Origin: Dehalococcoidia bacterium
GTDB taxonomy: Bacteria; Chloroflexota; Dehalococcoidia; Lucifugimonadales; Australimonadaceae
Assembly: GCA_965116305.1 (NCBI GenBank)
Contig: OZ220673.1
Coordinates: 469,784 to 533,783, forward strand
Reading direction: 5' to 3'
DNA length: 64,000 nucleotides
The translations under genes and the position numbers were made by a program. Below, piece by piece: positions 7,645-40,883 of the stretch (positions are counted from its first letter, which is position 1; every line of letters starts with the position of its first letter). The notes beneath the pieces were generated by a model. That model did not search any database, was not told the DNA's origin, and saw only the letters and a list, made by a program, of their open reading frames with translations.

Positions 7645-7885
7645 TCGGCGTCGCTCGGCGGGCGCTGATGATGCGTCCAGCGTCCGGCTCGTCAGGCCAG
7701 GTGTGAACGACCAGGACGAGGAGCCCTTCGATCATCCCAATCGTACGCCATCGCTGCTCGTATGGGTACGGATCGTCGTGTGTCGCTGCGAGCAGATCAT
7801 CGAACACGAGTATCGCGGTCTCGAACTCTATGCCGTGGTCCCGGAGGTTCGCTTCATTCTTCGCTTGGTCCCACTCCCAGATCAA
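7610..7885 (-). CDS. brnT: BrnT-family (DUF497) toxin, putative ribonuclease
   Basis: 91-aa ORF with a TTG start. IWEWDQAKNEANLRDHGIEFETAILVFDD...RWRTIGMIEGLLVLVVHTW...GRIISARRATPNERRAYEEG matches the BrnT pattern closely. Confidence 0.85.
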   Translation of the reverse strand: MIWEWDQAKNEANLRDHGIEFETAILVFDDLLAATHDDPYPYEQRWRTIGMIEGLLVLVVHTWPDEPDAGRIISARRATPNERRAYEEGYA

Positions 7886-12282: not shown

Positions 12283-12300
12283 GCTACTCGTCCTCCGGCG

Positions 12301-12420
12301 CCTCACCTTACAAGTGGAGAGGACCAGAGGCAACGTGCCCATATCCTCACCTCTCCCATTGGGAGAGAGCCTGCCGTGAGCTTGTCGAACAGGTCGCCGC
12401 ACAGCAGCGGGTGAGGGTTA
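12301..12420. repeat. Intergenic repeat cluster (family B)
   Basis: CCTCACCTTACAAGTGGAGAGG, CCTCACCTCTCCCATTGGGAGAGAG and GCGGGTGAGGGT. Confidence 0.75.
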
Positions 12421-25137: not shown

Positions 25138-25206
25138 GCTTCCTCCTGGCGGCACGGTGACCGAATGCCGCACAGTTTAGCGTTGCGCCGCGTCTGACGT
25201 ACGTTC

Positions 25207-26871: not shown

Positions 26872-27780
26872 TCACCCTGAAACGTGCTCAATGAACTCGC
26901 GCATCTTTGCGACGCACTCCTCAGGTCGTTCCAGTTGGAGGAGGTGTGTCGCTTCCGGCAGGAAGTCGTAGTCGACGCTCAGCATGTCGCTGAGGTCCAT
27001 CGTCGGCAGGTACGAGAAGGGGAGCGTCGGGTCCGCTCCGATCACCTTCGTCGGGCACTGAAGCGACCCGAGGTCCACCGACACGGCGAAGAGCCGGGCG
27101 TAGTCCATGATCTGGGCCTCGTACTCGGGAGGACACCGCAGCACGTAGCCATCCCCATCGGTCTCCTCGCGGAGCGTCGTCCTCGCCATCAGGTCGTGTG
27201 TTCCCGGGACGACACGTGTGAAGACCGGCGACATCTGCAGGAGCTCGGCGAAGTCTCCAAGGCTGCGGAACCGGCGCGAGCGGCGGCGGGCTGACGCCGA
27301 CGCGCGTTTGACCGCTGCGTCGAACGCCTCGTAGCTCTCACCCGGCTTGCACAGCGGAGGGTCGAACAGGACGAGGGCCGAGAACCCGCTGCCTTCGGTG
27401 GGCGACAACAGCGGCGCAAGGGACGAGAACGAATGAAACACCCCTATCTTCGGTTTCTCCCCCAGAAGGCGGTCGATCGCATCCATGACGAGGTCGTGGT
27501 CGTCGATCAGCGTGGGGATGGTGTGCTCCTCAAGGTCCGTTACGGCGTTCCAGCCATGGTTCCTCAGGTCGTAGACCACGACGTCGAAGTCGCCGGTAAG
27601 CAGCGACCAGAAGGGATAGTAGAGATCGATGGCGAGGCTGTTGCCGTGGCTCAGCACCAGCCGGGGGCCGTCGGGGTTGCCGTGCCGCCGCAGGAAGATG
27701 CGTGTCCCATCGGCCATCTCAATCTCGTGGACAGAGACAGGCTCCGGGATCTTCCAGTCAGGTTGCGGGTTATCGGCCAA
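26872..27780 (-). CDS. Alpha/beta-fold hydrolase (candidate release or thioesterase enzyme of the PKS locus)
   Basis: 302-aa ORF with a TTG start. LVLSHGNSLAIDLY, a nucleophile-elbow-like GVFHSFSS and the C-terminal EATHLLQLERPEE motif. It starts 3 nt after the PPTase stop. Confidence 0.75.
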   Translation of the reverse strand: MADNPQPDWKIPEPVSVHEIEMADGTRIFLRRHGNPDGPRLVLSHGNSLAIDLYYPFWSLLTGDFDVVVYDLRNHGWNAVTDLEEHTIPTLIDDHDLVMDAIDRLLGEKPKIGVFHSFSSLAPLLSPTEGSGFSALVLFDPPLCKPGESYEAFDAAVKRASASARRRSRRFRSLGDFAELLQMSPVFTRVVPGTHDLMARTTLREETDGDGYVLRCPPEYEAQIMDYARLFAVSVDLGSLQCPTKVIGADPTLPFSYLPTMDLSDMLSVDYDFLPEATHLLQLERPEECVAKMREFIEHVSG

Positions 27781-27782
27781 AT

Positions 27783-28520
27783 CTACGGGCTCTCCAACTC
27801 ATGGGCGAGGGCGGCGGCGAACCGCTCGTCCCCGATGTCCTCCAGCCTCCAGGCGACAGACGGCAGGTGCGGAAAGCTGAATACGCCCGCCATGCCGCCC
27901 CTGCGCATCGCGGGAGGCGTCTGGAACCCGGAGGGATCAGTGGAGAACCCGGTGCCCAGCGCCTTGATCAGCGCCTCCTTCAGCGTCCACAGGCGGTAGA
28001 ACAGGTGCAGTTTAGCGGGTTCTCGAAGAGCGGCAAGTTCCCTCTGCTCCTCCGGCCCCATCACCGCTTCTATCAGTTCGTCCAGGTGGCGTCTCCGGAT
28101 GCGCTCTTCGACGTCTACCCCCAACCGTCCCGTCACCGACAGGGCGATCAGGCCGTGGCTGCCGCTGTGACTGACGTTGAAGTTGAGCGGAAGACGCGCT
28201 CCTCCCGCTATCGCGAACGGCTTCCCGTGGCTGGATGCGCCGAACGAAAGCTGGTCGTTCAGGCAGCCGAACTGCTCGCAGAGGATGGCGCGCAACGCGG
28301 CGCGGCAGAGGGTGAACTGGCGGCGCGGCTGGGGCAGGTACTTCTCCCACGCGCCCCGCTCTGCCTCGTCCAGCCACCCGAACGCCTCCGCCTCGCGGGC
28401 CGGATCGGGGCTCAGGACAACGTGCACGACCTGTACGCCGACCCTGGTCGCGAACGGACTCCACCAGGGGCCCGGAACAGGCGAAAGGCTCTCGGGAGGA
28501 GTCTGGGCAACCATCATCAT
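27783..28520 (-). CDS. 4'-phosphopantetheinyl transferase (Sfp type)
   Basis: FNVSHSGSHGLIALS, GVDVEE and WTLKEALIKALGTGF. Confidence 0.88.
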   Translation of the reverse strand: MMMVAQTPPESLSPVPGPWWSPFATRVGVQVVHVVLSPDPAREAEAFGWLDEAERGAWEKYLPQPRRQFTLCRAALRAILCEQFGCLNDQLSFGASSHGKPFAIAGGARLPLNFNVSHSGSHGLIALSVTGRLGVDVEERIRRRHLDELIEAVMGPEEQRELAALREPAKLHLFYRLWTLKEALIKALGTGFSTDPSGFQTPPAMRRGGMAGVFSFPHLPSVAWRLEDIGDERFAAALAHELESP

Positions 28521-28568: not shown

Positions 28569-28811
28569 CTAGCCGCGGGAGTCCAGGTGCGCTACCAGGT
28601 CTCCCAGGCTCTGGAACTTGACGCAGTCTTCGGGGCTGAAGGTGAGGTTGAACTCTTCCGCGACCACCTTGGTGAAGGCGACGAAGTCTGCCGAGGGGAC
28701 GCCGGCGTCCCGCAGGCTCGAGTTCAGGTCGAGTTCCCGGCCCAGCGGCCGCCCTTCAATCTCCAGGTTCTCGTCGACCAGCTTCCTGATGCGTTCTTCG
28801 GTGGTGGCCAT
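28569..28811 (-). CDS. Free-standing acyl/peptidyl carrier protein (non-canonical Ser context)
   Basis: 80-aa four-helix-type sequence. The candidate phosphopantetheine site is DAGVPSADFVAF, where DLGLDSL is usual. It lies directly downstream of the PKS. Confidence 0.7.
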   Translation of the reverse strand: MATTEERIRKLVDENLEIEGRPLGRELDLNSSLRDAGVPSADFVAFTKVVAEEFNLTFSPEDCVKFQSLGDLVAHLDSRG

Positions 28812-28898: not shown

Positions 28899-31800
28899 TC
28901 AGCACCCGCCCGAGCCCGGTATCAGCCGCTCGAGCGGTTCGATCCAGTGGCGGCGGCGCTGGAACGGGTAGCCGGGCAGAGCGACCCGCCGCCGGGACTC
29001 TCCTGCGAACAACCCCGGGAACGAGAGCGGGAGCCCGGCCTCGTATGCTCCGGCAACCGCCTCTACGAAACCGTCGTTCAGGCTCAACTCGACTACGAGA
29101 TCGGCCCCCGGCTCTCCAGTAAGGCTGCTCACCACGGGTATCGACGGCGAGGCAAGCGCGATGCCGTCGACGGCTGCTTCCAGGCTGTTCGGCGCGCCGG
29201 ACGCCATCGACTCGCCGCGCGTTACCGCGACGCGAAGGCCGTCCTCGAGGCTGAACACGCCCGCCGTCTGTGATGCGGCGAGTTCGCCGGGGCCGTGCCC
29301 CACAACCACGTCTGGACGTACCCCGACGCTCGACCAGAGCGCCGTCAACGCGCACTCCAGCGCATAGACCGCGGGCTGCGTCCAGGCAGGGTCGTCGAGG
29401 TCGCCCGCCGCGCCGGGACGACCGAACATCACGTCCAGCAACGAGGCGCCGCGGGCTTCCCGCAGGGTCGCGTCGCACCGGTCCAGCACCGCGCGGAAGG
29501 CCGGCTCGCTCTCGTACAACGCCTCGGCCATTCCCATCCGCTGGCTGCCTTCACCGGTGTAGACGAACGCCACCCTGGACGCGGCTCGCGGCTCCTGCTC
29601 TTCGGGCGTCTCGCCGCGTTCCGCAACCGCCCACAACCCCTCGCGCAGCGACGCGGCATCGCGGAAGACCACCCCCGCGCGGTATGGGAAGTGGCTGCGG
29701 CCGACGCTCGCCGTCCAGGCCATGTCGGACAGCGTTGCATCGCTGGCGGCGCTGCCAGGCGGGAACTGCTCGGGGTGCTCGTCGAGCCAGGCGATGTAGC
29801 GCTCCGCCAGCTCCCGCAGGGCGCGGTCTGTCTTTCCTGACAGGGGCAGCAGGCGTGTCTCTCGGCCGGCGGTTGCTCCGTCGAGGGCAGGCCCCTGCGC
29901 GGGGATGGCAACCGGCATCGAAGGCCCGGCAGGCCTGCCGTTCTCTCCGTTGGCGCTCGCAGGTTCGCCGTAGCCCTCCACGATGACGTGCGAGTTCGTG
30001 CCCGACATCCCGAATGCGCTCACCCCCGCACGTGGCGGACGGTCGGGAACGGATGGCCAGTCGGTCGTGCCTGTGGTCACCTGCACGGGGAGTTGTTCCC
30101 AGTCCACGTTGGGGTTCGGGTTGTCGAGGTGCAGGTGTTTCGGGATCACGCCGTGTTCCATCGCGAGCACGGCCTTGATGAGGGCGGCTATCCCCGCAGC
30201 GGACTCCAGGTGGCCGATGTTCGTTTTCACCGACCCGACGAGGAGCGGACGGTCTGCCTCGCGTCCCCTGCCGTACACCGCCGCCGCGGCGCGCACCTCG
30301 ATGGGGTCGCCCAGGTTCGACCCGACCCCGTGCGCTTCCAGGTAGTCCACCTCCGACGGTTCGACGCCGGCGCGGGCAAGCGCTTCCTCGATCACACGCT
30401 CCTGCGCGGGCCCTTTCGGGACGGTCAGCCCCATGCTCGCGCCGTTCTGGTTGACCGCCGAGCCGCGGATGACCCCCCATATCCGATCGCCGTCGGCCTC
30501 CGCGTCGCTCAGTCGCTTCAGTACCACGATGCCGCAGCCCTCGCCCCGCACGTAGCCGTCCGCGTCCGCGTCGAACGTTCTGCATTCGCCGTTCGCCGAC
30601 AGCATGCCGAGGTCATCCATGAACCTCGTGACCTGGGTGGACAGCACCGCGTTGACGCCGCCGGCAAGCGCGAGGTCCACCTCGCCGTGCTGCAGGCCGG
30701 CAACCGCCTGGTGCACGGCGGCCAGCGACGAGGCGCATGCCATGTCCATCGGCATCGCGGGCCCCTCCAGGCCGAGCGCAAACGCAACCCGCCCCACCGT
30801 CACGCTGCCGGTTGTGCCCAGGTAGCTGTTGGATCTGCCGCTGGTCTGGATGAGGTCCCGGTACTCGCTGCCGCCCACTCCCGCGTAGACCCCTGTGCGG
30901 CTGCCTCGCAACCGGTCGGGGTCTATGCCCGCGTCCTCGAGCGCCTGCCAGCTCGTCTCCAGCATCATCCGCTGCTGCGGGTCCATCATCCGCGCTTCGA
31001 TCGGTGCGATGCGGAAGAACCGGGAATCGAACAGGTCGATGTCCTTCACGAACGCGCCCCGCAGGAAGGTGTTCTCTTTCGCCGCCGGGTCGCCGACCGC
31101 GCCATACCAGTCGCCGGAGCCCTCTCGGCCGTCTGCGATCGCGCTCTCGCCCGCTATCAGCTGGCGCCAGAAGTCGGAGACGTCCTCCGCGCCGGGGAAC
31201 CGGCACGCCATCCCGACGATGGCGATGCCATCCTGTACGCCGGAGCGTGTCTGCGCTTCCGGCGCACGCCGCTCCGGGAGCGCCGCTTCTGTGGGCTCCC
31301 CGAGCTCTCCCGCCAGGTGACGGGCGAGCGCCGTGACGCTCGGGTAGTCGAACACCACGGTGTTCGGAGCCACGTATTCTCCGGCGAACGCGCGGTTCAC
31401 GCGGTTGCGCAGCTCCACCGCCATCAGCGAGTCCATCCCCAACTCGGAGAACTCCACCGACGCGGTCGGCGGCGTCTGCAGGCGCATCACCGCCTGCAAC
31501 TCCCGCTGCAGGAACGACGACAGCATCTGCTCGCGCTCCTCCAGCGACGCGTCCCACAGGCCGGAAAGGACGTCGCCCGGCGAGGCCGCTGCCTCCGCGG
31601 CTCTGTCCTCGGTCGTTGTCAGCAGGTCCTCCAGCAGCGACGGACGTTCTTCGTGGTTCTTCGCGAACGTCGGCCAGTCCACCGCCGCCACCATCCCGGC
31701 GCTCATATCCTGCCGAAGCATCAGGTCGAACGCCTTCAGTCCCTGCTCCGGCGTGATCCAACCCGTTCCCGCTGCTTCCAGCTGCCTCGCGATGCGCTCC

Positions 31801-34800
31801 CGCTGCTCCTCTGCCTCGCCGAGTCCCGACCACGCGCCCCACGCGATGGTCTGGGCGGGGAGCCCCTGCGCGCGCCGGTGACCGGCGAGCTGGTCGAGGA
31901 ACGCGTTGGCTGCGGCGTGGTTCGCCTGGCCGGGATTGCCGAGAACGCCCGCCACACTCGAGAACAGGACGAACATATCCAGGTCCCGGCCGACGGTTGC
32001 GCGGTGCAGGCGCCAGGCGCCCAGCACCTTCGGCCACAGCACCTCCTCGAACCGCTCCCAGCTCTGGTTCGTCAGCGCCGCGTCGGACAGCACGCCCACG
32101 CTGTGGATGACGCCCGCCAGCGGCGGCAGCGTCGCGTCGATGCGCTCCAGCATCCGGTCCACCGCGCCGGCGTCGGTGACGTCCGCGATCTCCACCTGCA
32201 CGGTGACGCCGCGTCTCTGCAACGCGTCGATCGCCTCGGCAACCTCGGGGTCCGGGGGGCGGCGTCCGTTCAGCACGATCGCGCCCGCGCCCCGCTCCGC
32301 GAGCCACTCCGCCAGCGCGCACCCGATGCCACCGAGTCCGCCGGTCACGAGGTACGTCCTGTCCTCGCGCAGCCGCCCGCTCTCCAGGGGCGACGTCGTA
32401 AACACGATCTTTCCGATGTGCCGCGCCGCCCGCATGAACTTCATCCCCGGTCCGGCTTCGGTCATCGACCATTGGCTGTGGACGAGGGGCCTCACCTCTC
32501 CCGCCTCCAGCTGTTGCATGACGCGCCGCAGGGCGTCTCCGGGCGTCTTGGGGTCGTGCTCTTTCAGCACGTCCAGCATCAGGATGGCGTAGGAGACGTC
32601 CGGCCGCACCGACGCCATCTCTTCCTCGGTCAGGATGTCCAGCCGGGCCAGTTCGATGAACCGCCCCCCCTGTGCGAGGCACGACAGGCTCGCGTCGATG
32701 AAACCCTCGCCCGTCAGGCTGTTCACCACCACGTGAACGCCTTCGCCGCCCGTGGCGTCGAGTATCTCCTGCCCGAACTTCGTCGAGCGGCTGTCGAACA
32801 CGTGCCGCACGCCCAGCGAGCGGAGGTACGCCTGCTTCGGCGCGCTCGCCGTCGCGAACACCTCCGCTCCCGCGGCCTGCGCCAGTTGGATGGCGGCCAG
32901 TCCCACGCCTCCCGCACCGGAGTGGATGAGCACGCGGTCGCCGGGGTTTAGTCCCGAAAGATCGAACGAGAGCGCCGCCGAAACGAACGCGGTCGGGATC
33001 GTCGCAAGTTCTGTTGCGGAGAAGCCTGACGGAACGGGCGACACCATCTCCTCTCGCGTGATCGCCTCCGACCCGAACGTCCCGAACGCCAGCCCCACGA
33101 TGCGCTCGCCCACCGAGACGCTGGTCACGTCGGCGCCCACTTCGAGCACGCGGCCGCAGAACTCGCCGCCCAGCAACCCCTCGTCGATGAGGCCGAGCGC
33201 GCGGAACAGGTCCCAGAAGTTGAGTCCCGCAGCCTCGACCGCCACGCGGACGTCTCGTGGTTCCAGCGGTCGGGCAGGGTAGGGCCCGATCTGCAACCCT
33301 TCGAGCGCGCCGCCCGCATCCGGCTCCAGCAGCCAGGCCGAGTCTTCCGTCAGCGTCAGCCGCTCGGTTGCGCTGCCTGCTCGGACGAGCCGGGCCGCCT
33401 GGCGGTACCCGAGACGGTAGGCGACGTGTGTCTCCGCGTCCGGGTACAGCAGCTCGTTGACGAGGTCGGACAGCGGGGCCTGCGCTCGGGGATCGAGGTC
33501 GATCATCCTCGGCTGCAGGTGCACCGCCTCCCGCGCCACGACCTTTCCGAAGCCCCACAGCGTCGCACCGGCGATCTCCCCACCCTGCTCCTTCTCCAGC
33601 ACCTGCCCGCCGCGCGTCAGCAGCCAGAACCCTTTCGCGGGGGTCACGTCCGCGTCCGTCACGCCCTGCGCGAGTGCCAGCGCGCTCGCTGCCGCATGTC
33701 TTACGTCCTGTGCGAATTCCTCTGCCGTGGCATCCTGGCCGTGCCCGTCCAGCGCCAGCAGATGCACGACGCCGTTGAGCGGCACGTCTGCGGGCAGCCC
33801 TTCCAGCAGCGACCGCCACGACTCCCGACTCTCCGGCTCCACCTCCGCGCCCGCCGGCACCACCGTCTGGTTGCGTGCCTCGAGTGCCGCTGCCAGTTCT
33901 TCCGCCACACCGCGGCTGTCGCCCGCGAGGACCCAGACCCCTGCCGGTTCCATCACCTCCGCCGGGCCCTGCGCCATGATGACGCCCCTGTCCGGCTCCG
34001 CCGACGCTGACGCCTCCACCCCGAGCACCTCCGCCTCCACGAAGCCCGCGTCGCCGAGCGCCTGCCGCCACACCGCGGGGCTGGCGAGCGCGTGGTGCGG
34101 ACGGTACGAGTCCGCGAACCGCCACCAGCCGTCCAGCTGTCCGAACGTCAGGTCGAGCCAGCCCTGGCCGCGAAGGTTCTCGAGCGCCAGCAGCTGCCCC
34201 GATGGGGCGAGCAGGTCGCGGCAGTGTCCGAGCGTCTCCTCCAGGTAGCGGGTCGCATGCAGTACGTTCGACGCGATGACGAGGTCGTAGCCGTGCGAGT
34301 CGTACCCCTGCGCGATGGGGTTCTTCTCGATATCCAGCACCCGGTACTCGATCGACGCTTCACTGCCGCCGAAGCGCCCCTCCGCCTCCGCGAAGAAGCC
34401 CGCCGATATGTCCGTGTAGACATAGTCGAAACGGCCCGCCGGCAATTCAGGCAGCACCAGCTCCGTCGCCGACCCCGTGCCGGCGCCGACCTCCAGCACG
34501 CGCAATCGCCGTCCCTCCGGGAACGATTCCAGCAGCGCCGCGACGGCGTCCCCCAGCATCCGGTTCGCCGCCTTCGCCACCGGTGCACGCATGTACAGGT
34601 CGGCTGCGGTCGGCTCTCCGCTGCTGAACAGCAGCGTCAGCGGGTCTGCGCGCCCGACGAGCACGTCTGCAAGCGCATTGGCGGACCGGCGGAACAGCCC
34701 GACTTCGACCGAGCCGTGCGCGTAGCGCGACGCCATCTCGTCCGCGAACGCCTCCGGGTCGTTCGGCACCGCTTCCGGCAGCGGGTCGCCGGGACCGACC

Positions 34801-37800
34801 AGTACGACGAAGCCGTCGCCCTGCGCCTCCACGATACCGGCCCTTGCCTGCAACTCGAACAGCCGCCGGAACAGGCGCGTGTGCTCCGCCGATACGCCGA
34901 ACCGCTCCCGCAGCGGTTCGGGCTCGACCGTTTCGCCGACCTTTCGCTCCCAGCCCAACTGCTCGAGCGCCGCGAGTGCGTACCGCCACGACAACCGTTC
35001 GAGGTCGGTCAGCAGCGCCGTCCTCTCATCGGCTCCGACACCCTCCGCAACGAGGTACTGCGAGAACGGCTTGGAACCCGCCGCGATGGTGGACGGCCCC
35101 GGAAGGAAGTCCGCGGACGGCATCCCCTCCGGAAGGGGCTTGTCGCGCCAGATGACCTCGTAGAGGAGGTCGTTCACGCCCTCGGTCCCGGAGAGCACGG
35201 CTGCTCGCGTCGCCCGCTTCACCGTGTACCCGCTCAACCCGCCGAGTTCGACGCCCTCCGGGGAGTAGAACTGCAGGTCTCCCGCGAACACCTCCCGCGA
35301 TCCGGCGGCTGCGCTCTCCTCGTCGGAGTCACGGGCGCTCTCCCGCATACGCGCGTGGCAGATCACCCGCTCCGGCAACTGCCCCGCCAGCCGGAGCGAT
35401 TCCCAGCCGAAGGGCAGGTAGGTCGCCCCGTCCTCGAGCCCCGCCCGGTTCCGAGCCGCAGCCATCACCTGGAAGCAGCCGTCCAGCAGGACCGGGTGCA
35501 CGGGCAGTCCCGTGCCGTCCAGTGCTTCCGGCAGGACGATCTCGCCGACCGCCTCGCCTTCCCCGCACCAGAGCCCCTGGAGCGTGCGGAACAGCGGGCC
35601 GAGGTTGATGTTCGTTTCGGCGCGCGCCCGGTAGAACGCCGCGATGTCCTCTTTCGACATGCCGGCCTTGAGCGCATCCGTATCGACCCGCTCGCGGGAC
35701 TGCCGTTCCGACCCGGACGACACCTGTCCCTGCGCGTGCAGCGTCCACCCTTCTTCCCCGTCCCCCCGGCTGAATATCTCGAACCTGCGCGGCGACGTAC
35801 CATCCGGGGCGTCGAGCACCATCTGGACGCTCCGGCCTTCCTGCGCGGCGCCTTGTTCGCCGTCCTGTTCGGGCAGGACCAGCGGAGTGACCAGTTGCAT
35901 CTCCTCCACGACCACTGACCCTTGTGCGCTCGCCAGAGCTGATGCCGCCATCGCCCCGTACAGCGCGCCCGGCGCGATCACCCGTCCGAACACCCGGTGA
36001 TCGTCCAGCCATGCCGGGTCGGTCGGGAGTGTCTCCGTCTCGAACAGCATCTCGCCGCGAGGCGACTCGTGCCGGGTTCCCAGCAGCGGATGCCCCGCGG
36101 CCGCTCGCCGTCGACGTCTCGCCTCGTCGACCCAGTGCGACTGGCGCTGGAACGGGTAGCCGGGTAGCGCGACCCGACGCCGCGACTCTCCCGTGAACAG
36201 CCCCGCCAACGAGAACGGGATGCCCGCCTCGTACGCTGCCCCGACCCCCTCAACGAACCCGCCGGTCGAGTCGAGGACAGGCTCTGCCGGGTCGCGCGGC
36301 GGTCGGTGGAGGCTCGACAGCACCGCCGGGGCGGCGCTCGACTCCGGCCAGGCGAGGCTCGCCATCGGTCCCAGCACCGCGTGCGGCCCCAGCTCCACCA
36401 CAGCGTCCACGCCCATCTCTGCCAGCGTCTCGACGCATCCCCGGAACGCCACCGGCTGCCGCGCGTGCCGCCGCCAGTACGCCGGGTCCTGCACCGCGCC
36501 CTGCTCGATGGGTTGGCCGGTGACGTTGCTCACCAGCGGGATGGTGGGCGACACGACCGCGATGCCGCTGATCACAGCCGCGAGGTCGTCCAGCGCCGGC
36601 TCTACGAGCACGCTGTGGTAACCGGGGCTGCTCCGCAGACGGTTCACCCGAAGCCCTTCCGCCTCGAACCGTTGCACGATCTGCTCGACCTCCCCCGCCT
36701 CGCCGCTCACCACCTGGTGCGCTCCGTTGTCCGCCGCAACGCTCAGCCCCAGCCCGTCGGACGCCGCGTTCCACTCCGCCAGCGCCACAACCACTTGCGG
36801 AGCTGGCGCGAACACCGCCGCCATCGCTCCCGCCACCGGCAGCGACGCCATCAGCTCGCCGCGCGTCGACGCGAACCGCAGCCCGTCCTCGAGGCTGAAC
36901 ACGCCCGCCGTCTGCGACGCCGCGATCTCTCCCAGACTGTGCCCCATCACCACGTCCGGACGCACGCCCAGGCTCGACCACAGCGCCGTCAACCCGCACT
37001 GGAGCGCGTAGGTCGCGGGCTGCGTCCACGCGGGGTCGTCCAGATCGCCCGCCGCGCCCGGACGGCCGAACATCACGTCCAGCAGCGATGCCCCGCGATG
37101 CTCCTGCACCCATCGCTCGCACCGGTCCAGCACCGCGCGGAACACCGGCTCGCTCTCGTACAGCGCCTGTCCCATCCCGACCCACTGGCTGCCCTGGCCG
37201 GTGTAGACGAACGCCACCTTGGACGCGGCTCGCGGCTCCGGCCCGTCGGGCGTGTCGTCGCCTTCCGCGACCTCCCGCAGCCGTTCGCGCAGCGATGCGA
37301 CGTCTTGGAAGACAACGCCCGCGCGGTGCGGGAAGTGGCTCCGCCCGACGCTCGCCGTCCACGTCATGTCGGACAGCGCTTCGTCGCTCGCGGTGCTGCC
37401 GGGCGGGAACTGCCCGGGATGCTCGTCGAGCCACGCGATGTACCGCTCCGCGTGCTCCCGCAGCGCCTGCCGAGACTTGCCCGACAGCGGCAGCAGCCGC
37501 GTCCCGCGCGCCGCCGACTCCGGCTCCTCTGGTCCCTTCCCCCTCGATGGGGGAAGGTCAGGATGGGGGTGACCCGGCTCCGGCATCCGAATGGCGACAG
37601 CCATCGAAGGCCCCGCGGGCAGGCCGTTCCCCGAGTCGGCGGCGATGGGCTCGCCGTAGCCCTCCACGATGACGTGCGCGTTCGTGCCGGACCACCCGAA
37701 GCCGCTGATGCCTGCGCGCGGCGGCCGGTCGGGAACGACCGGCCACTCCATCGTCTCTGACGCCACCCGCACGGTCAGTCGCTCCCACTCGATCTCCGGG

Positions 37801-38990
37801 TTCGGGGTGCTGAAGTTCAGGTGCTTCGGGATGACCCGGTGCTTCATCGCCAGCATCACCTTGATGAGGCTGGCGGCGCCTGCCGCCGACTCCAGGTGGC
37901 CGATGTTCGTCTTCACCGACCCCACGAGGAGCGGACGTTCCGCGTCGCGCCCCCTGCTGTACACCGTCCCCGTAGCCTGCATCTCGATGGGGTCGCCCAC
38001 CGGCGTCCCCGTCCCGTGCGCCTCCACGTAGTCCACTTCCCACGGCTCCAGCCCCGCGCGGAGCAGCGCCGCCTCGATCACCTGCTCCTGCGCGGGCTCG
38101 CTCGGCACCGTCAGCCCCGGACTCGCTCCGTCCTGGTTCAGCGCGGAGCCGCGGATGACGCCCCATATCCGGTCGCCGTCCGCCTCGGCCTCGCTGAGCC
38201 GCTTCAGTACGAGGATGCCGCAGCCCTCGCCCCGCACGTACCCGTTCGCCGCGGCGTCGAACGTCTTGCACCGCCCGTCCGGCGCCAGCATCCCGGCATT
38301 CGCCCGCAGCTCCAGCAGCCGACCCGACAGGATCGCGTGCACGCCTCCCGCGAGTGCGAGGTCGGCCTCGCCGCGCTGCAGCCCGGTCACCGCCTGGTGC
38401 ACCGCCACGAGCGAGGAGGAGCATGCCGTGTCCACCGCGATCGCCGGCCCCTGCAGCCCGAGCGCGAACGCCACCCGCCCGATGGCCGTGTTGAACGACG
38501 TGCCGGTGACCGTGTAGAGGCTCGCTGCGGGGTCTGCGGTGTCGCTGACGCCCAGGATGAGCCCCCGGTATTCGTTGTTGCTGATCCCCGCGTAGACCCC
38601 GGTGCGGCTGCCTTTCAGCGTGTCCGGGTCGATCCCCGCGTCTTCGAGCGCCCGCCAGCTCGTCTCCAGCATCAGCCGTTGCTGCGGGTCCAGCAGTTGC
38701 GCCTCCACCGGGGAGATGCGGAAGAACCCCGCGTCGAACTGGTCGATGTTGTCGATGTACGCCCCGAACCGGCACGCCTCGGCCTGCACCGCGGGGTCGG
38801 GGAACAGGTAGCCCACGCGACCGACGCCGGAGCCCGGAACGCCCTCGATGACCGCGCTCTCGCCCGCTTCGAGTTGACGCCAGAACGCCGGAAGCCCCGT
38901 TGCGCTGGGGAACCGGCACGCCATCCCCACCACCGCTATCGGCTCAGCGGGCTGCCCGCCGGATACCTCCGCCTTCCCCTCGGATGCCAT
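28899..38990 (-). CDS. Type I polyketide synthase, KS-AT-DH-cMT-ER-KR-ACP-KS-(vestigial AT)
   Basis: The single ORF runs to TTG 39011 (3370 aa). ATG 38990 is preceded by AGGGGGAAGG. All domain motifs were read directly and are listed in the domain features below. Confidence 0.95.
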   Translation of the reverse strand: MASEGKAEVSGGQPAEPIAVVGMACRFPSATGLPAFWRQLEAGESAVIEGVPGSGVGRVGYLFPDPAVQAEACRFGAYIDNIDQFDAGFFRISPVEAQLLDPQQRLMLETSWRALEDAGIDPDTLKGSRTGVYAGISNNEYRGLILGVSDTADPAASLYTVTGTSFNTAIGRVAFALGLQGPAIAVDTACSSSLVAVHQAVTGLQRGEADLALAGGVHAILSGRLLELRANAGMLAPDGRCKTFDAAANGYVRGEGCGILVLKRLSEAEADGDRIWGVIRGSALNQDGASPGLTVPSEPAQEQVIEAALLRAGLEPWEVDYVEAHGTGTPVGDPIEMQATGTVYSRGRDAERPLLVGSVKTNIGHLESAAGAASLIKVMLAMKHRVIPKHLNFSTPNPEIEWERLTVRVASETMEWPVVPDRPPRAGISGFGWSGTNAHVIVEGYGEPIAADSGNGLPAGPSMAVAIRMPEPGHPHPDLPPSRGKGPEEPESAARGTRLLPLSGKSRQALREHAERYIAWLDEHPGQFPPGSTASDEALSDMTWTASVGRSHFPHRAGVVFQDVASLRERLREVAEGDDTPDGPEPRAASKVAFVYTGQGSQWVGMGQALYESEPVFRAVLDRCERWVQEHRGASLLDVMFGRPGAAGDLDDPAWTQPATYALQCGLTALWSSLGVRPDVVMGHSLGEIAASQTAGVFSLEDGLRFASTRGELMASLPVAGAMAAVFAPAPQVVVALAEWNAASDGLGLSVAADNGAHQVVSGEAGEVEQIVQRFEAEGLRVNRLRSSPGYHSVLVEPALDDLAAVISGIAVVSPTIPLVSNVTGQPIEQGAVQDPAYWRRHARQPVAFRGCVETLAEMGVDAVVELGPHAVLGPMASLAWPESSAAPAVLSSLHRPPRDPAEPVLDSTGGFVEGVGAAYEAGIPFSLAGLFTGESRRRVALPGYPFQRQSHWVDEARRRRRAAAGHPLLGTRHESPRGEMLFETETLPTDPAWLDDHRVFGRVIAPGALYGAMAASALASAQGSVVVEEMQLVTPLVLPEQDGEQGAAQEGRSVQMVLDAPDGTSPRRFEIFSRGDGEEGWTLHAQGQVSSGSERQSRERVDTDALKAGMSKEDIAAFYRARAETNINLGPLFRTLQGLWCGEGEAVGEIVLPEALDGTGLPVHPVLLDGCFQVMAAARNRAGLEDGATYLPFGWESLRLAGQLPERVICHARMRESARDSDEESAAAGSREVFAGDLQFYSPEGVELGGLSGYTVKRATRAAVLSGTEGVNDLLYEVIWRDKPLPEGMPSADFLPGPSTIAAGSKPFSQYLVAEGVGADERTALLTDLERLSWRYALAALEQLGWERKVGETVEPEPLRERFGVSAEHTRLFRRLFELQARAGIVEAQGDGFVVLVGPGDPLPEAVPNDPEAFADEMASRYAHGSVEVGLFRRSANALADVLVGRADPLTLLFSSGEPTAADLYMRAPVAKAANRMLGDAVAALLESFPEGRRLRVLEVGAGTGSATELVLPELPAGRFDYVYTDISAGFFAEAEGRFGGSEASIEYRVLDIEKNPIAQGYDSHGYDLVIASNVLHATRYLEETLGHCRDLLAPSGQLLALENLRGQGWLDLTFGQLDGWWRFADSYRPHHALASPAVWRQALGDAGFVEAEVLGVEASASAEPDRGVIMAQGPAEVMEPAGVWVLAGDSRGVAEELAAALEARNQTVVPAGAEVEPESRESWRSLLEGLPADVPLNGVVHLLALDGHGQDATAEEFAQDVRHAAASALALAQGVTDADVTPAKGFWLLTRGGQVLEKEQGGEIAGATLWGFGKVVAREAVHLQPRMIDLDPRAQAPLSDLVNELLYPDAETHVAYRLGYRQAARLVRAGSATERLTLTEDSAWLLEPDAGGALEGLQIGPYPARPLEPRDVRVAVEAAGLNFWDLFRALGLIDEGLLGGEFCGRVLEVGADVTSVSVGERIVGLAFGTFGSEAITREEMVSPVPSGFSATELATIPTAFVSAALSFDLSGLNPGDRVLIHSGAGGVGLAAIQLAQAAGAEVFATASAPKQAYLRSLGVRHVFDSRSTKFGQEILDATGGEGVHVVVNSLTGEGFIDASLSCLAQGGRFIELARLDILTEEEMASVRPDVSYAILMLDVLKEHDPKTPGDALRRVMQQLEAGEVRPLVHSQWSMTEAGPGMKFMRAARHIGKIVFTTSPLESGRLREDRTYLVTGGLGGIGCALAEWLAERGAGAIVLNGRRPPDPEVAEAIDALQRRGVTVQVEIADVTDAGAVDRMLERIDATLPPLAGVIHSVGVLSDAALTNQSWERFEEVLWPKVLGAWRLHRATVGRDLDMFVLFSSVAGVLGNPGQANHAAANAFLDQLAGHRRAQGLPAQTIAWGAWSGLGEAEEQRERIARQLEAAGTGWITPEQGLKAFDLMLRQDMSAGMVAAVDWPTFAKNHEERPSLLEDLLTTTEDRAAEAAASPGDVLSGLWDASLEEREQMLSSFLQRELQAVMRLQTPPTASVEFSELGMDSLMAVELRNRVNRAFAGEYVAPNTVVFDYPSVTALARHLAGELGEPTEAALPERRAPEAQTRSGVQDGIAIVGMACRFPGAEDVSDFWRQLIAGESAIADGREGSGDWYGAVGDPAAKENTFLRGAFVKDIDLFDSRFFRIAPIEARMMDPQQRMMLETSWQALEDAGIDPDRLRGSRTGVYAGVGGSEYRDLIQTSGRSNSYLGTTGSVTVGRVAFALGLEGPAMPMDMACASSLAAVHQAVAGLQHGEVDLALAGGVNAVLSTQVTRFMDDLGMLSANGECRTFDADADGYVRGEGCGIVVLKRLSDAEADGDRIWGVIRGSAVNQNGASMGLTVPKGPAQERVIEEALARAGVEPSEVDYLEAHGVGSNLGDPIEVRAAAAVYGRGREADRPLLVGSVKTNIGHLESAAGIAALIKAVLAMEHGVIPKHLHLDNPNPNVDWEQLPVQVTTGTTDWPSVPDRPPRAGVSAFGMSGTNSHVIVEGYGEPASANGENGRPAGPSMPVAIPAQGPALDGATAGRETRLLPLSGKTDRALRELAERYIAWLDEHPEQFPPGSAASDATLSDMAWTASVGRSHFPYRAGVVFRDAASLREGLWAVAERGETPEEQEPRAASRVAFVYTGEGSQRMGMAEALYESEPAFRAVLDRCDATLREARGASLLDVMFGRPGAAGDLDDPAWTQPAVYALECALTALWSSVGVRPDVVVGHGPGELAASQTAGVFSLEDGLRVAVTRGESMASGAPNSLEAAVDGIALASPSIPVVSSLTGEPGADLVVELSLNDGFVEAVAGAYEAGLPLSFPGLFAGESRRRVALPGYPFQRRRHWIEPLERLIPGSGGC
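28944..29576 (-). other. PKS vestigial AT2 plus post-AT linker
   Basis: FVYTGEGSQR and GHGPGELAA (Gly codon 29292-29294 replaces the Ser). About 150 aa are missing relative to AT1, including the catalytic His region. It ends with the YPFQRRRHW linker. Confidence 0.8.
29967..31232 (-). other. PKS domain KS2
   Basis: IAIVGMACRFPG, DMACASSL, EAHGVGSNLGDPIE and KTNIGHLESAAG. The Cys-His-His triad is retained. Confidence 0.88.
31302..31544 (-). other. PKS domain ACP
   Basis: FSELGMDSLMAVELRNRV. Confidence 0.88.
31812..32360 (-). other. PKS domain KR (catalytic Tyr position occupied by His)
   Basis: YLVTGGLGGIGCALAEWL and LWPKVLGAWRL are present. FSSVAGVLGNPGQANHAAANAFLD has His (CAC, complement of 31917-31919) where Tyr is normally found. 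Confidence 0.8.
32397..33329 (-). other. PKS domain ER
   Basis: VLIHSGAGGVGLAAIQLAQAAGAEVFATAS (NADPH site). MDR-type fold. Confidence 0.85.
34032..34694 (-). other. PKS domain C-methyltransferase
   Basis: VLEVGAGTGSAT (motif I) and YDLVIASNVLHAT. Boundaries are approximate. Confidence 0.8.
35232..36104 (-). other. PKS domain DH
   Basis: HPLLG, LDDHRVFGRVIAPGA (HxxxGxxxxP) and HPVLLDGCFQ. Confidence 0.85.
36297..37223 (-). other. PKS domain AT1 (intact)
   Basis: FVYTGQGSQW, GHSLGEIAA (Ser codon 36936-36938), and RLRSSPGYHSV at the position of the HAFH/YASH specificity motif. Confidence 0.88.
37531..37572. repeat. 42-nt family E element inside the PKS coding sequence (KS1-AT1 linker)
   Basis: GGTCCCTTCCCCCTCGATGGGGGAAGGTCAGGATGGGGGTGA. 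Four further copies are listed under the other clusters. Confidence 0.85.
37662..38942 (-). other. PKS domain KS1
   Basis: IAVVGMACRFP, DTACSSSL (Cys codon 38421-38423), EAHGTGTPVGDPIE and KTNIGHLESAAG. Confidence 0.9.
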
Positions 38991-39060
38991 CGCCTTCCCC
39001 CTCTGACCCAAGCCGGGTCATGGACTGACAGACGCATTATAAGACTGCTGCGTCGCAAGT

Positions 39061-39305: not shown

Positions 39306-40883
39306 ATGAGCCGCCCATCCCTTGCCCCCTACAACCCGGAGCCCGTACAGCGCCTGCTGCGGCAGGCAGCCGAGCAGTGGCCGGACGACACCGCCATCGT
39401 CGACGGCGACCGCCGGTTCACGTTCGCCCAACTCGACGACTGCTCCGGCAGGTTCGCGTCCGTGCTCGCGGCGATGGGCCTCGGCAAGGGCGACATCGTC
39501 GGCATCCTCTCCCCGAACTGCGCCGAGTTCGAGGTCGCCTTCTTCGGCATCCTGAAGGCGGGTGCGACCGTCACCACCGTCAACTCCGGCTATCGCGAGC
39601 GCGAGATCGCCTACCAATTGGAAGCGTCCGGCGCGCAGGCGCTCATCGTCCACCACACGCTCGCCGACGCCGCCGACCTCGCGCTCGCCGGCTCGGAGCA
39701 GGTGAGACACCGCATCCTCATCGCGGAAGAAGCGGACGCCGCACCCTCGTTCTGGTCGCTCATCGAGGCGCAGAGCGGCCCGCCGCCCGAGCCCGCGCTC
39801 GACTCGTACGAAGACATCGCCGCGTTGCCCTTCTCCTCCGGCACCACCGGCCTGCAGAAGGGCGTCATGCTCACCCACGCCAACCTCCACACCAACGTCC
39901 GGCAGAACCTCGGGCGCTCCGGCGAGGAGGGCGTCGTCCGCCGCGGCGACGTCATGCTCGTCCACCTGCCGCTCTTCCACATCTACGGCATGACCGTCCT
40001 CCAGCTGAGCGCTATCGCCGCCGGGGCGACGCAGGTGATGATGGGCCGGTTCGACATGGGGGAGATGCTGTCGCTCATCGCCGAGCACCGCGTCTCCGTG
40101 CTCTACACCGTGCCGCCCGTCTGCCTCGGCCTGACGCTCACGCCGCTGCTCGACGAGTACGACGTGTCGTCGCTGCGCTTCCTGCTCAGCGGCGCGGCGC
40201 CGCTCTCCGGCGAGTTGCAGACGCGGCTCGCGGAACGGCTCGGCTGCGCCGTCATCCAGGGCTACGGCCTCACCGAGACGTCGCCCATGACCAACACCGA
40301 CTTCACCGACGAGCGCGGCAGGCCCGGCACCATCGGTCCCGCGATACCGGATACCGAGGAGCGCGTCGTCGACCTCGAAACGGGCGAGCGCGACCTGCCT
40401 CCCGGCGAGCTCGGCGAGCTGCTCGTCCGCGGCCCGCAGGTGATGAAGGGCTACTACCGCCAGCCCGAGGCGACCGCGGAGGTCATCACCCCGGACGGCT
40501 GGTTCCACACCGGCGACATCGCAAGCATGGACGAGGACGGCTACGTGCGTGTCGTCGACCGCAAGAAGGAGCTCATCAAGTACAAGGGCTTCCAGGTCGC
40601 GCCCGCCGAGTTGGAGGGCCTGCTGCTGGAGCACCCCGGCGTCGCCGATGCAGCCGTCATCCCCAAGGCCGACGAGGAAGCCGGCGAGGTGCCCAAGGCG
40701 TTCGTCGTCCGGAAGGCCGAGGCTGAGGCTTCCGCCGCCGACCTCATGACGTTCGTCGCCGAGCGCGTCGCGACCTTCAAGCAGCTGCGCGAGGTCGAGT
40801 TCATCGACGCCATCCCCAAGAACGCCTCCGGTAAACTGTTGCGGCGCGTCCTCATCGACCAGGAGCGGGCGCGCGAAGCCTGA
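39306..40883 (+). CDS. AMP-dependent acyl-CoA synthetase/ligase (4-coumarate/long-chain fatty-acid CoA-ligase-like)
   Basis: 525-aa ORF. LPFSSGTTGLQKGVMLTHANL, GYGLTETS, GWFHTGDIASMDEDGYVRVVDRKKELIKYKGFQVAPAELE and PKNASGKLLRR. Divergent from the PKS. Confidence 0.9.
   Translation: MSRPSLAPYNPEPVQRLLRQAAEQWPDDTAIVDGDRRFTFAQLDDCSGRFASVLAAMGLGKGDIVGILSPNCAEFEVAFFGILKAGATVTTVNSGYREREIAYQLEASGAQALIVHHTLADAADLALAGSEQVRHRILIAEEADAAPSFWSLIEAQSGPPPEPALDSYEDIAALPFSSGTTGLQKGVMLTHANLHTNVRQNLGRSGEEGVVRRGDVMLVHLPLFHIYGMTVLQLSAIAAGATQVMMGRFDMGEMLSLIAEHRVSVLYTVPPVCLGLTLTPLLDEYDVSSLRFLLSGAAPLSGELQTRLAERLGCAVIQGYGLTETSPMTNTDFTDERGRPGTIGPAIPDTEERVVDLETGERDLPPGELGELLVRGPQVMKGYYRQPEATAEVITPDGWFHTGDIASMDEDGYVRVVDRKKELIKYKGFQVAPAELEGLLLEHPGVADAAVIPKADEEAGEVPKAFVVRKAEAEASAADLMTFVAERVATFKQLREVEFIDAIPKNASGKLLRRVLIDQERAREA

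What the first reader, a model, noticed from the sequence alone, without database searches (positions are those of the whole stretch)
28944..31232. C-terminal KS2 is intact but its AT is a catalytically dead, truncated relic and no ACP follows
Seen in the sequence: KS2 keeps Cys (DMACASSL) and both His residues (EAHGVGS, NIGHLES). The following AT-like region has four defects:
- GEGSQR where AT1 has GQGSQW.
- GHGPGE where AT1 has GHSLGE. The Ser codon is replaced by GGC at 29292-29294.
- By hand alignment it lacks about 150 residues present in AT1, including the small subdomain and the His of the Ser-His dyad (AT1 ...SPGYHSV...).
- It then ends with the post-AT linker YPFQRRRHW and 14 more residues.

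Inference: the AT remnant is retained only as a structural scaffold for KS2. AT1, or an unlinked trans-AT, must load the downstream free carrier protein.
Basis: partly seen in the sequence, partly recalled or inferred. Interest (0 to 1): 0.6.

Follow-up and report, generated by a model that had tools for sequence, protein, structure and literature searches.

The report
Dead truncated acyltransferase ending a sponge-symbiont PKS
The end of this 3370-residue fatty-acid-synthase-like polyketide synthase really is an intact ketosynthase followed by a dead, shortened acyltransferase and a stop codon, but this is the conserved ancestral layout of a PKS cassette found in sponge-symbiont genomes of at least 14 phyla, so it is a typical member rather than a local oddity.

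Summary
Observation confirmed. ORF 28899..39011 (-) encodes KS1-AT1-DH-cMT-ER-KR-ACP-KS2-linker-AT0. KS2 keeps Cys/His/Lys/His. AT0 reads GEGSQR and GHGPGE (GGC at 29292-29294) and lacks 152 residues present in AT1, including the small subdomain and the catalytic His. It ends 14 residues after YPFQRRRHW.

This is not a local accident or a frameshift. All 69 full-length relatives, from MAGs of at least 14 phyla (many with sponge-derived names), share the domain order. Nearly all have the nucleophile replaced (Gly in 59 of 67), and every relative in which the spacing could be measured lacks the small subdomain and His. The carrier protein is a separate gene, on the opposite strand in 22 loci.

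The window's Chloroflexota clade has two extra deletions. KS2 is under strong purifying selection (dN/dS 0.06-0.07). The AT0 N-half is constrained (0.14-0.20), and its last 39 residues evolve nearly neutrally (about 0.7). AlphaFold models the linker plus AT0 confidently as a minimal AT large-subdomain core.

Best reading: an ancient pseudo-enzyme scaffold that holds the KS2 flanking linkers, in a Sup-type sponge-symbiont PKS. Trans-loading of the free ACP by AT1 is inferred, not shown. Novelty: a new member of a known kind. Interest: modest.

The parts
28899..39011 (-). PKS ORF, 3370 aa: KS1-AT1-DH-cMT-ER-KR-ACP-KS2-linker-AT0. The stop TGA is at 28899-28901.
   Evidence: ORF list and translation. 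Pfam domains. GC3 of 0.88.
37662..38945 (-). KS1 (aa 23-450), with Cys-His-Lys-His intact.
   Evidence: Pfam. Motifs DTACSSSL, EAHGTGT, NIGHLES. dN/dS 0.02.
36297..37211 (-). AT1 (aa 601-905), the only intact acyltransferase. It carries GQGSQW, GHSLGE, R717 and GYHS.
   Evidence: Pfam Acyl_transf_1 best stretch 601-881. The catalytic columns are invariant in 69/69 relatives.
31314..31511 (-). In-chain ACP (aa 2501-2566, GMDSLM).
   Evidence: Pfam PP-binding. Motif.
29967..31241 (-). KS2 (aa 2591-3015), with Cys2759, His2894, Lys and His2934 present.
   Evidence: dN/dS 0.06-0.07. PDB KS-AT didomains match at E down to 1e-187.
29568..29966 (-). KS-to-AT linker domain (aa 3016-3148).
   Evidence: Pfam CurL-like_PKS_C, RhiE-like_linker and KAsynt_C_assoc. 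Modelled at pLDDT about 90-96.
29082..29567 (-). AT0 relic (aa 3149-3310). The N-half of the AT large subdomain carries GEGSQR and GHGPGE, and Arg3265 is kept. Two short strands follow (IPVVS, LVVEL). The small subdomain, the His motif and two further segments are deleted.
   Evidence: Model. Foldseek TM 0.65-0.70 to linker-AT segments of solved PKSs.
28902..29081 (-). Post-AT linker (…GFVEAVAGAYEAGL…YPFQRRRHW) plus a 14-residue tail.
   Evidence: 95-97% identical to L001 and L002, with dN about 0.02.
28569..28811 (-). Discrete 80-aa carrier protein. Ser40 (GVPS40AD) is the predicted phosphopantetheine site. It has its own GAGGAG ribosome-binding site.
   Evidence: Pfam PP-binding E=7e-8. Sequence. 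G37 and S40 are invariant in 68 orthologues.
27783..28520 (-). Sfp/HetI-type 4'-phosphopantetheinyl transferase.
   Evidence: Pfam ACPS and AASDHPPT_N. Weak NCBIfam HetI/AcpT matches. Present in 37 of 78 related loci.
26872..27780 (-). Alpha/beta-fold hydrolase (conserved HG, GxFHS, D and H), the presumed release enzyme.
   Evidence: Pfam Abhydrolase_6. More than 3000 homologues, the best 120 at 62-93% identity. Present in 62 of 78 loci. Conservation profile.
39306..40883 (+). Divergently transcribed acyl-CoA/AMP ligase of the long-chain fatty-acid ligase type. It neighbours the PKS only in this Chloroflexota clade, so it is probably accessory.
   Evidence: Pfam AMP-binding. NCBIfam. Synteny only in L002 and L004.

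Best explanation
Region 28899-31241 (-) is the C-terminal half-module of a fatty-acid-synthase-like type I PKS, KS1-AT1-DH-cMT-ER-KR-ACP-KS2-AT0. The PKS belongs to a cassette (PKS, discrete ACP, alpha/beta hydrolase, often a PPTase) spread by horizontal transfer through sponge-symbiont genomes. By its distribution this is the 'Sup' (sponge symbiont ubiquitous) PKS family.

AT0 is an ancient pseudo-enzyme. The family's ancestor had already lost the nucleophilic Ser, the catalytic His and the whole small subdomain. The window's Chloroflexota clade later lost two more segments.

What remains is the KS-AT linker domain, a minimal four-stranded core of the AT large subdomain, and the post-AT linker that ends in YPFQRRRHW. 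I infer that this remainder is kept because a KS of cis-AT ancestry needs its two flanking linkers held in the right geometry.

KS2 itself is a working condensing enzyme. I infer that it takes the chain built by module 1 and extends it once onto the discrete ACP (28569-28811). That ACP would be activated by the neighbouring PPTase. It would be malonylated in trans by AT1, the only AT in the system, or by the cell's FabD. The hydrolase would then release the product.

Shown: the anatomy, its conservation, the selection pattern and the predicted fold. Inferred: the scaffold role, the loading route, the single extension and the release step.
For: Anatomy.

Family-wide conservation:
- About 100 of the 120 best hits end 10-23 aa after YPFQRRRHW, have the Ser replaced, and have an elbow-to-YPF spacing of 112-201 residues, against 262-277 in intact ATs.
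- The genome scan found 562 relatives and returned 77 loci from MAGs of at least 14 phyla. These include Ca. Palauibacter irciniicola and denitrificans, Ca. Porisulfidus, SAR202 bin90 and APA/RHO/COS bins.
- Every complete locus has the same domain order.
- AT1 catalytic columns are invariant in 69/69. The AT0 nucleophile is Gly in 59/67, Asp in 4, Ala in 1 and Ser in 3. The elbow glycines are kept in 64/67 and 67/67.

KS2:
- Cys-His-Lys-His is kept in 62/69 relatives.
- dN/dS is 0.06-0.07. The AT0 N-half is 0.14-0.20, the last 39 aa of AT0 are 0.67-0.76, and the post-AT linker has dN of about 0.02.
- KS1 and KS2 form separate orthologous groups (0.68 and 0.67 identity between loci, 0.58 within a protein), so the duplication is ancient.

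Fold:
- The model of linker plus AT0 has pLDDT 88.7 and pTM 0.87 and contains the four core strands.
- It matches linker-AT segments of CurL, DEBS, salinomycin and tylosin PKSs at TMq 0.53-0.70.

Free ACP:
- It has its own RBS and is separated from the PKS by three in-frame stops.
- Ser40 is invariant in 68 orthologues.
- It lies downstream on the same strand in 43 loci, downstream on the opposite strand in 22, and upstream in 2.
- No other AT or KS is found in the window or within 10 kb in any locus.

Literature:
- Sup PKSs are small, sponge-specific, proposed to make methyl-branched fatty acids, and reported in sponge Chloroflexi.
Against: - No biochemical data exist for any member in the literature I could read.
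- The scaffold role rests on selection statistics from only three close genomes and on a predicted fold.
- Seven of 69 lineages have replaced a KS2 catalytic His. This argues that condensation by KS2 is not indispensable everywhere.
- The C-terminal remnant of AT0 evolves almost neutrally, and different clades have trimmed it independently to spacings of 110, 130, 141-148 and 155-192 residues. Part of the relic is therefore plainly dispensable.
- I could not compare the window directly with a named SupA sequence, and I could not read Fieseler et al. 2007. The family assignment rests on architecture and host distribution.
Confidence: 0.7

Rival explanations
1. KS2 is mainly a chain-transfer or gatekeeper ketosynthase. 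It accepts the finished acyl chain from the in-chain ACP on its Cys and hands it to the free ACP without decarboxylative condensation. No extender unit has to be loaded, and that is why the adjoining AT could die.
For: AT0 is dead in essentially every member. The KS2 first His is Asn in 5 lineages and Gln in 1, and the second His is Tyr in 1. KS1 is never altered. In those lineages the free ACP and, in three of them, the hydrolase are still present within the locus. From established knowledge, His-to-Asn at HGTGT is typical of non-elongating KS0 domains of trans-AT PKSs.
Against: 62 of 69 KS2 domains keep Cys-His-Lys-His across at least 14 phyla. KS2 dN/dS is 0.06-0.07. That level of retention is not expected if the decarboxylation residues were unnecessary.
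Confidence: 0.17
2. AT0 is kept as a docking platform for a protein partner, such as the free ACP, the hydrolase, or a trans-acting malonyltransferase like FabD, and not merely to hold the KS linkers.
For: The N-half of AT0 is conserved well beyond what a spacer needs (58% median identity between phyla; dN/dS 0.14-0.20). The Arg equivalent to the carboxylate-binding Arg is kept in 40/67 members.
Against: No discrete AT is encoded near any of 79 loci. Most of the ACP-facing surface of an intact AT is deleted (small subdomain, His region). From established knowledge, the 'AT docking domains' once proposed for trans-AT PKSs proved to be the KS-flanking linker domain. Solved trans-AT KS structures match only the first 442-486 residues of the 800-residue KS2-AT0 query, that is KS plus linker.
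Confidence: 0.08
3. KS2-AT0 is a decaying, functionless vestige of a former second module, or the apparent truncation is a sequencing or assembly artefact.
For: The last 39 residues of AT0 have dN/dS of 0.67-0.76. Several clades deleted further pieces independently. The close relative L002 carries a 1-nt insertion that breaks the ORF in the KS2-AT0 linker.
Against: The same architecture, stop position and separate ACP occur in 69 full-length genes from independent assemblies. KS2 is as constrained as the other catalytic domains. In L002 the downstream frame stays open and conserved to the shared C-terminus, which fits an assembly error.
Confidence: 0.05

Closest known systems
Sup ('sponge symbiont ubiquitous') PKS clusters, supA-E (Fieseler et al. 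2007; Hochmuth et al. 2010)
   Same: The held papers describe a small, FAS-like, single-module type I PKS. It is exclusive to, and ubiquitous in, high-microbial-abundance sponges and is proposed to make methyl-branched fatty acids. Homologous type I PKS clusters are reported in sponge SAR202 and Caldilineae Chloroflexi. The window's cassette has a cMT-containing, fully reducing module. Its relatives sit in sponge-derived MAGs of many phyla.
   Different: I could not obtain the original paper or a named SupA sequence. Whether the published SupA description already includes the second KS and the dead AT rests on my unverified recollection. I recall KS-AT-DH-MT-ER-KR-ACP followed by a second KS and a partial AT, with ACP, PPTase and hydrolase genes downstream. 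SupE is a permease, and no permease is adjacent here. The nearest transporter is an EamA gene 7 kb away.
KS plus flanking linker domain of trans-AT PKS modules (for example PksJ KS 4NA1, 'AT-less PKS' 4QYR)
   Same: A KS is followed by remnants of the AT region with no acyltransferase activity, so the carrier protein must be loaded in trans.
   Different: In trans-AT modules the AT core is entirely absent. Solved trans-AT KS structures align only to residues 23 to about 486 of the KS2-AT0 query. The ACP is in cis and a dedicated discrete AT gene is present. Here half of the AT large subdomain survives, the ACP is a separate gene, and no discrete AT is nearby. KS2 is closest to cis-AT KS-AT didomains such as CurL, Lsd14 and DEBS.
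Pseudo-domains of animal fatty acid synthase (pseudo-methyltransferase and pseudo-ketoreductase) (established structural knowledge)
   Same: Catalytically dead, truncated relics of once-active domains are retained in a megasynthase as structural elements.
   Different: Those relics sit in the modifying region and support the KR. Here the relic is an acyltransferase flanking a terminal KS.
Mycocerosic acid synthase and other MAS-like or iterative fully reducing PKSs (KS-AT-DH-ER-KR-ACP)
   Same: Module 1 has the same fully reducing order. MAS structures are among the best matches.
   Different: MAS-like enzymes end at the ACP. They have no second KS, no dead AT, no partner free ACP, and no cMT.

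Membership tests
Functional PKS/FAS acyltransferase (for AT0) | Nucleophilic Ser in the GHSxG elbow | tested here: not met
   GHGPGE, with GGC at 29292-29294. The position is Gly in 59/67 family members.
Functional PKS/FAS acyltransferase (for AT0) | Catalytic His of the Ser-His dyad, and the ferredoxin-like small subdomain | tested here: not met
   An approximately 80-aa block containing both is absent in every C-terminal AT aligned, and the elbow-to-YPF spacing is short wherever it could be measured in the full-length relatives. The spacing is 110 residues against 262 in AT1.
Functional PKS/FAS acyltransferase (for AT0) | GQGxQ oxyanion/substrate motif and carboxylate-binding Arg | tested here: inconclusive
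   GEGSQR replaces GQGSQW, and the Gln is Glu in 33/67 members. Arg3265 is retained here and in 40/67 members.
Condensing ketosynthase (for KS2) | Cys-His-His triad plus the conserved Lys | tested here: met
   C2759, H2894, K and H2934 are present. dN/dS is 0.06-0.07.
Sup (sponge symbiont ubiquitous) PKS | Small FAS-like type I PKS with a single complete, fully reducing, methyltransferase-containing module | tested here: met
   KS-AT-DH-cMT-ER-KR-ACP by Pfam. The held papers describe Sup as 'small monomodular', resembling FAS, and producing methyl-branched fatty acids.
Sup (sponge symbiont ubiquitous) PKS | Occurrence in symbionts of high-microbial-abundance sponges, across many taxa | tested here: met
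   Relatives occur in MAGs named Ca. Palauibacter irciniicola and denitrificans, Ca. Porisulfidus, SAR202 bin90, and APA_, RHO_, COS_ and SB066x bins. Palauibacter species names refer to sponge hosts. The window's own sample source is not known to me.
Sup (sponge symbiont ubiquitous) PKS | KS falls in the sponge-specific Sup clade, or is directly similar to named SupA | not testable with these tools
   No named SupA or Sup amplicon appeared in the three protein searches. The whole-protein search timed out. Fieseler 2007 is not held.
trans-AT PKS | Dedicated discrete AT gene in the cluster, and a KS of the trans-AT clade | tested here: not met
   No AT homologue lies outside the PKS in the window or in 79 loci. 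By whole-sequence E-value, the best PDB match (7zma, 'putative polyketide synthase') aligns only to the KS-plus-linker part of the query. The best matches that extend into AT0 are cis-AT KS-AT didomains (CurL, Lsd14, DEBS), as are the best fold matches.

The most novel reading that the evidence does not exclude
KS2-AT0, the free ACP and the hydrolase may form a hand-off device that couples a type I module to discrete-carrier chemistry. Module 1 would install one methyl-branched, fully reduced unit. KS2 would then condense the chain onto the stand-alone ACP, where type II FAS enzymes continue elongation. This would explain how the methyl branch ends up mid-chain in sponge fatty acids. A further untested variant is that KS1 and KS2 pair within one polypeptide as a pseudo-dimer, with AT0 as the structural mirror of AT1.
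Probability: 0.12. Interest if true: 0.7.

Novelty: new member of a known kind. Interest (0 to 1): 0.3.

Why it matters
The locus is one more copy, in a Chloroflexota chromosome, of what appears to be the most abundant PKS of sponge microbiomes. The held literature still lists its product as unproven and its source organisms as uncertain (in 2014).

The comparative picture assembled here is a concrete basis for experiments on how this enzyme finishes and releases its chain:
- An invariant second KS.
- An AT that was dead before the family radiated and is being whittled down further.
- Occasional gene conversion from AT1.
- Occasional loss of a KS2 His.
- An invariant free ACP and a highly conserved hydrolase.

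It also shows how far an AT domain can be trimmed while the adjoining KS stays under selection. That is useful for engineering AT-less modules.

Tried and rejected
- Frameshift or fused ACP: rejected. There are three in-frame stops, the ACP has its own RBS, the stop position is conserved, and the ACP is on the opposite strand in 22 loci.
- Mis-alignment hiding an intact active site: rejected. Identity to AT1 is 79% up to the deletion, and phmmer alignment to CurL places the query's gpGE at CurL's SvGE.
- Recent intragenic duplication or conversion as the source of the AT1/AT0 similarity in the window: not supported. Paralogue dS is 0.34-0.72 in the AT N-half and is no lower than in the KS. Conversion is clear only in L023 and L055.
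- Nearby trans-AT: none found.
- AMP ligase as a core partner: rejected. It is syntenic only in the closest relatives.
- Direct link to named SupA:
  - The whole-protein database search timed out.
  - Searches with the hydrolase and with a KS1 amplicon-sized fragment returned no Sup-named entries.
  - Fieseler 2007 and Siegl 2011 are not held.
  - Full-text searches for the domain string and for supB-D found nothing useful.
- The first AlphaFold job (780 aa) gave an unusable N-terminal half of KS2, because the alignment did not cover it. Its global Foldseek rmsd values are therefore meaningless. A second job on the linker plus AT0 was used instead.
Full report
**What is there**

The finding lies at the 3' end of a 10.1-kb ORF on the minus strand (28899..39011, 3370 aa). 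Pfam gives the domain order KS, AT, DH, C-methyltransferase, ER, KR, ACP (aa 2501-2566), then a second KS, a KS-AT linker and a second, partial Acyl_transf_1 match.

- KS2 has DMACASSL, EAHGVGS and NIGHLES.
- The second AT has GEGSQR where AT1 has GQGSQW.
- It has GHGPGE where AT1 has GHSLGE. The codon at 29292-29294 is GGC, against AGT in AT1.
- The protein ends 14 residues after YPFQRRRHW.

BLASTP of the two AT regions gives 79% identity over 225 residues up to ...TRGESMAS. After that, AT0 jumps to the post-AT linker. The elbow-to-YPF distance is 110 residues against 262, so 152 residues are missing.

**Is it an artefact?**

No.
- The PKS stop is followed by two more in-frame stops and an 87-nt spacer. 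A GAGGAG ribosome-binding site then precedes an 80-aa PP-binding protein at 28811..28569.
- Two close relatives have the same GH(G)PGE or GDGSGE elbow, the same deletions and the identical C-terminus ...IEPLERLIPGSGGC, followed by ACP, PPTase and hydrolase genes. They are L001, a Chloroflexota MAG, and L002, a 2.8-Mb contig that is fully syntenic with the window.
- L002 has one extra A that splits the ORF in the KS2-AT0 linker. The downstream frame stays open and conserved, so I take this as an assembly error.
- Exact-sequence look-ups place the window on a 2.9-Mb Chloroflexota contig.
- The flanks are chromosomal: L1, L11, NusG, EF-Tu, tRNAs and a type I R-M system.

**The feature is ancestral to a very large family**

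A protein search used the linker plus AT0 as query.
- About 100 of the 120 best hits end 10-23 residues after YPFQRRRHW.
- They carry Gly or Asp in place of the Ser, and often Q, D, Y or F in place of the preceding His.
- Their elbow-to-YPF spacing is 112-201 residues, against 262-277 in intact ATs.

The alignment shows that all of them lack the same block of about 80 residues. That block holds the small subdomain and the catalytic His. The window, P0001 and P0003 lack two further blocks of about 32 and 40 residues.

A scan of species-representative genomes found 562 relatives. The 77 loci returned come from MAGs of these groups:
- Chloroflexota/Dehalococcoidia, Latescibacterota, Nitrospirales and Nitrospinota.
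- Gemmatimonadota (Ca. Palauibacter, Longimicrobiales) and Acidobacteriota.
- Gamma- and Alphaproteobacteria, Thermodesulfobacteriota and Rhodothermales.
- Dadabacteria, Binatia, Spirochaetia and Acidimicrobiia.

Many isolate names point to sponges: irciniicola, Porisulfidus, APA_, RHO_, COS_ and SB066x bins, and SAR202 bin90 (one search covers the Palauibacter names).

tblastn with the window's domains shows the same order KS1-AT1-DH-cMT-ER-KR-ACP-KS2-AT0 in every complete locus. Among 78 loci with KS2:
- The free ACP lies downstream on the same strand in 43, downstream on the opposite strand in 22, and upstream in 2.
- A hydrolase is present in 62.
- A PPTase is present in 37.

**Catalytic state across the family**

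In 69 full-length proteins, KS1 keeps Cys-His-Lys-His in 65/65. KS2 keeps it in 62/69. The first His is Asn in five lineages and Gln in one, and the second His is Tyr in one.

AT1 has Gln, His, Ser and Arg invariant in 69/69. AT0 differs as follows:
- The nucleophile position is Gly in 59/67, Asp in 4, Ala in 1 and Ser in 3.
- Two of the three Ser cases (L023, L055) are 94-95% identical to their own AT1. Gene conversion has re-imported GHSLGE there, but the small subdomain and His are still missing.
- The structural glycines of the elbow are kept in 64/67 and 67/67.

KS1 and KS2 form separate orthologous groups. Median identity is 0.68 and 0.67 between loci, against 0.58 within a protein, so the duplication predates the radiation.

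**Selection**

Nei-Gojobori estimates were made among the window, L001 and L002.

| Region | dN/dS |
|---|---|
| KS1 | 0.02-0.03 |
| AT1 | 0.02-0.15 |
| KS2 | 0.06-0.07 |
| KS2-AT0 linker | 0.23-0.31 |
| AT0 N-half | 0.14-0.20 |
| AT0 remnant after the first deletion (39 aa) | 0.67-0.76 |
| Post-AT linker plus tail | 0.18-0.38 |

For the post-AT linker, dN is about 0.02 and dS is unusually low at 0.04-0.13.

So KS2 is functional. The N-half of the relic and the post-AT linker are constrained. The small C-terminal remnant is close to neutral. This fits the independent extra trimming seen in other clades, with spacings of 130, 141-148 and 155-192 residues. These statistics come from three close genomes and short segments, so they are indicative only.

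**Fold**

The 780-aa KS2-AT0 model was poor in the N-terminal half of the KS because the alignment did not cover it. It was confident from the linker onward.

A separate model of the 353-aa linker plus AT0 has mean pLDDT 88.7 and pTM 0.87. It contains:
- The linker-domain strands and helices.
- The first AT strand (VAFVY).
- The elbow strand.
- Two more strands (IPVVS, LVVEL).
- The post-AT helices.

Foldseek matches it to linker-AT segments of CurL, DEBS, GfsA and the salinomycin and tylosin PKSs at query-normalised TM 0.53-0.70. The alignments are about 450 columns long because the target carries the parts that are missing here. The relic is therefore predicted to be a compact, minimal version of the AT large subdomain rather than a disordered tail.

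**Mechanism**

Shown:
- AT0 cannot catalyse acyl transfer.
- KS2 is intact and constrained.
- The only other carrier protein is a discrete one with an invariant Ser40, sitting next to a PPTase and a highly conserved alpha/beta hydrolase.
- AT1 is the only AT in the window and within 10 kb in all loci.

Inferred:
- In cis-AT KS-AT didomains the post-AT linker folds back onto the linker domain and the KS (established structural knowledge). On that basis the relic is retained to keep those two elements in place.
- KS2 extends the module-1 product once onto the free ACP.
- That ACP is malonylated by AT1 or by FabD.
- The hydrolase releases the product.

The main rival is that KS2 only transfers the chain to the free ACP, so no loading is needed. 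The seven lineages with a lost His favour this rival. The 62 lineages that keep the full catalytic set argue against it.

**Relation to known systems**

The held literature describes Sup PKSs as follows:
- They are small, 'monomodular', FAS-like PKSs.
- They are exclusive to high-microbial-abundance sponges and dominate KS amplicon libraries.
- They are proposed to make mid-chain-branched fatty acids.
- Their source organism was unresolved in 2014.

Homologous type I PKS clusters are reported in sponge SAR202 and Caldilineae. A sponge-specific KS clade spread over many phyla has also been reported.

The window's cassette fits this description in architecture and distribution. I could not read Fieseler et al. 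2007 or retrieve a named SupA sequence. Direct membership, and whether the dead AT was already described, therefore remain unverified. My unverified recollection is that supA was drawn with a second KS and a partial AT, followed by ACP, PPTase and hydrolase genes.

The layout works like a trans-AT module in that a KS lacks its own AT. It is not a member of that class, for three reasons:
- KS2 is most similar to cis-AT didomains.
- Half of the AT core survives.
- No discrete AT is encoded nearby.

**Verdict**

The feature is the normal, ancient state of a widespread family. The window's clade is one of the more eroded variants of it.

Noticed in passing
L023 (about 10367-11230) and L055 (about 10358-11221): In these two gammaproteobacterial sponge-symbiont loci, the linker and N-half of the dead C-terminal AT are 94-95% identical to the same protein's AT1 and again read GHSLGE. 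The small subdomain and His are still deleted. This looks like intragenic gene conversion from AT1 into AT0.
   Followed up: partly
KS2 of L025, L045, L048, L049, L067 (His to Asn), L020 (His to Gln), L027 (second His to Tyr): About 10% of family members have lost one of the two decarboxylation histidines in KS2, while KS1 is never altered. There appear to be at least three independent events, and the free ACP and, where the locus reaches it, the hydrolase are still present.
   Followed up: partly
window 28902-29081 (last 60 codons of the PKS): Synonymous divergence from L001 and L002 is only 0.04-0.13 here, against 0.3-0.6 in the rest of the gene. This may reflect nucleotide-level constraint, for example expression signals for the downstream ACP, or recent exchange. 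It is unexplained.
   Followed up: no
L002 position 9826: A single extra A between TTC and CGC splits the orthologous PKS into 3172-aa and 196-aa gene calls inside the KS2-AT0 linker. The new frame stays open and conserved to the shared C-terminus, so this is probably a long-read assembly error.
   Followed up: yes
window 26872-27780 (-): The 302-aa alpha/beta hydrolase is the most conserved protein of the cassette. It has more than 3000 homologues at E<1e-20, and the best 120 are all 62-93% identical across phyla. It has conserved HG, GxFHS, Asp and His positions. No curated family reaches its cut-off.
   Followed up: partly
window 39306-40883 (+): A long-chain-fatty-acid-CoA-ligase-like AMP-binding gene is divergently transcribed from the PKS. 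It is syntenic only in the closest Chloroflexota relatives (L002, L004), so it may supply a starter acid in this clade.
   Followed up: partly
window 4423-12402: A type I restriction-modification system (HsdR 4423-7644, HsdM 10156-12402) flanks a stretch where GC drops to 0.53 at 8-10 kb. This stretch is presumably the specificity subunit.
   Followed up: no
window 23299-25173 (-): A 624-aa protein has two ETF-domain stretches plus ETF_alpha, so it appears to be a fused electron-transfer flavoprotein beta-alpha. It is conserved in the same position in L002.
   Followed up: no
tool behaviour: All three homologous-protein searches listed only hits up to about 1.75 times the query length. Full-length PKS relatives and any named SupA could therefore not be retrieved with short queries, and the full-length query timed out.
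   Followed up: no
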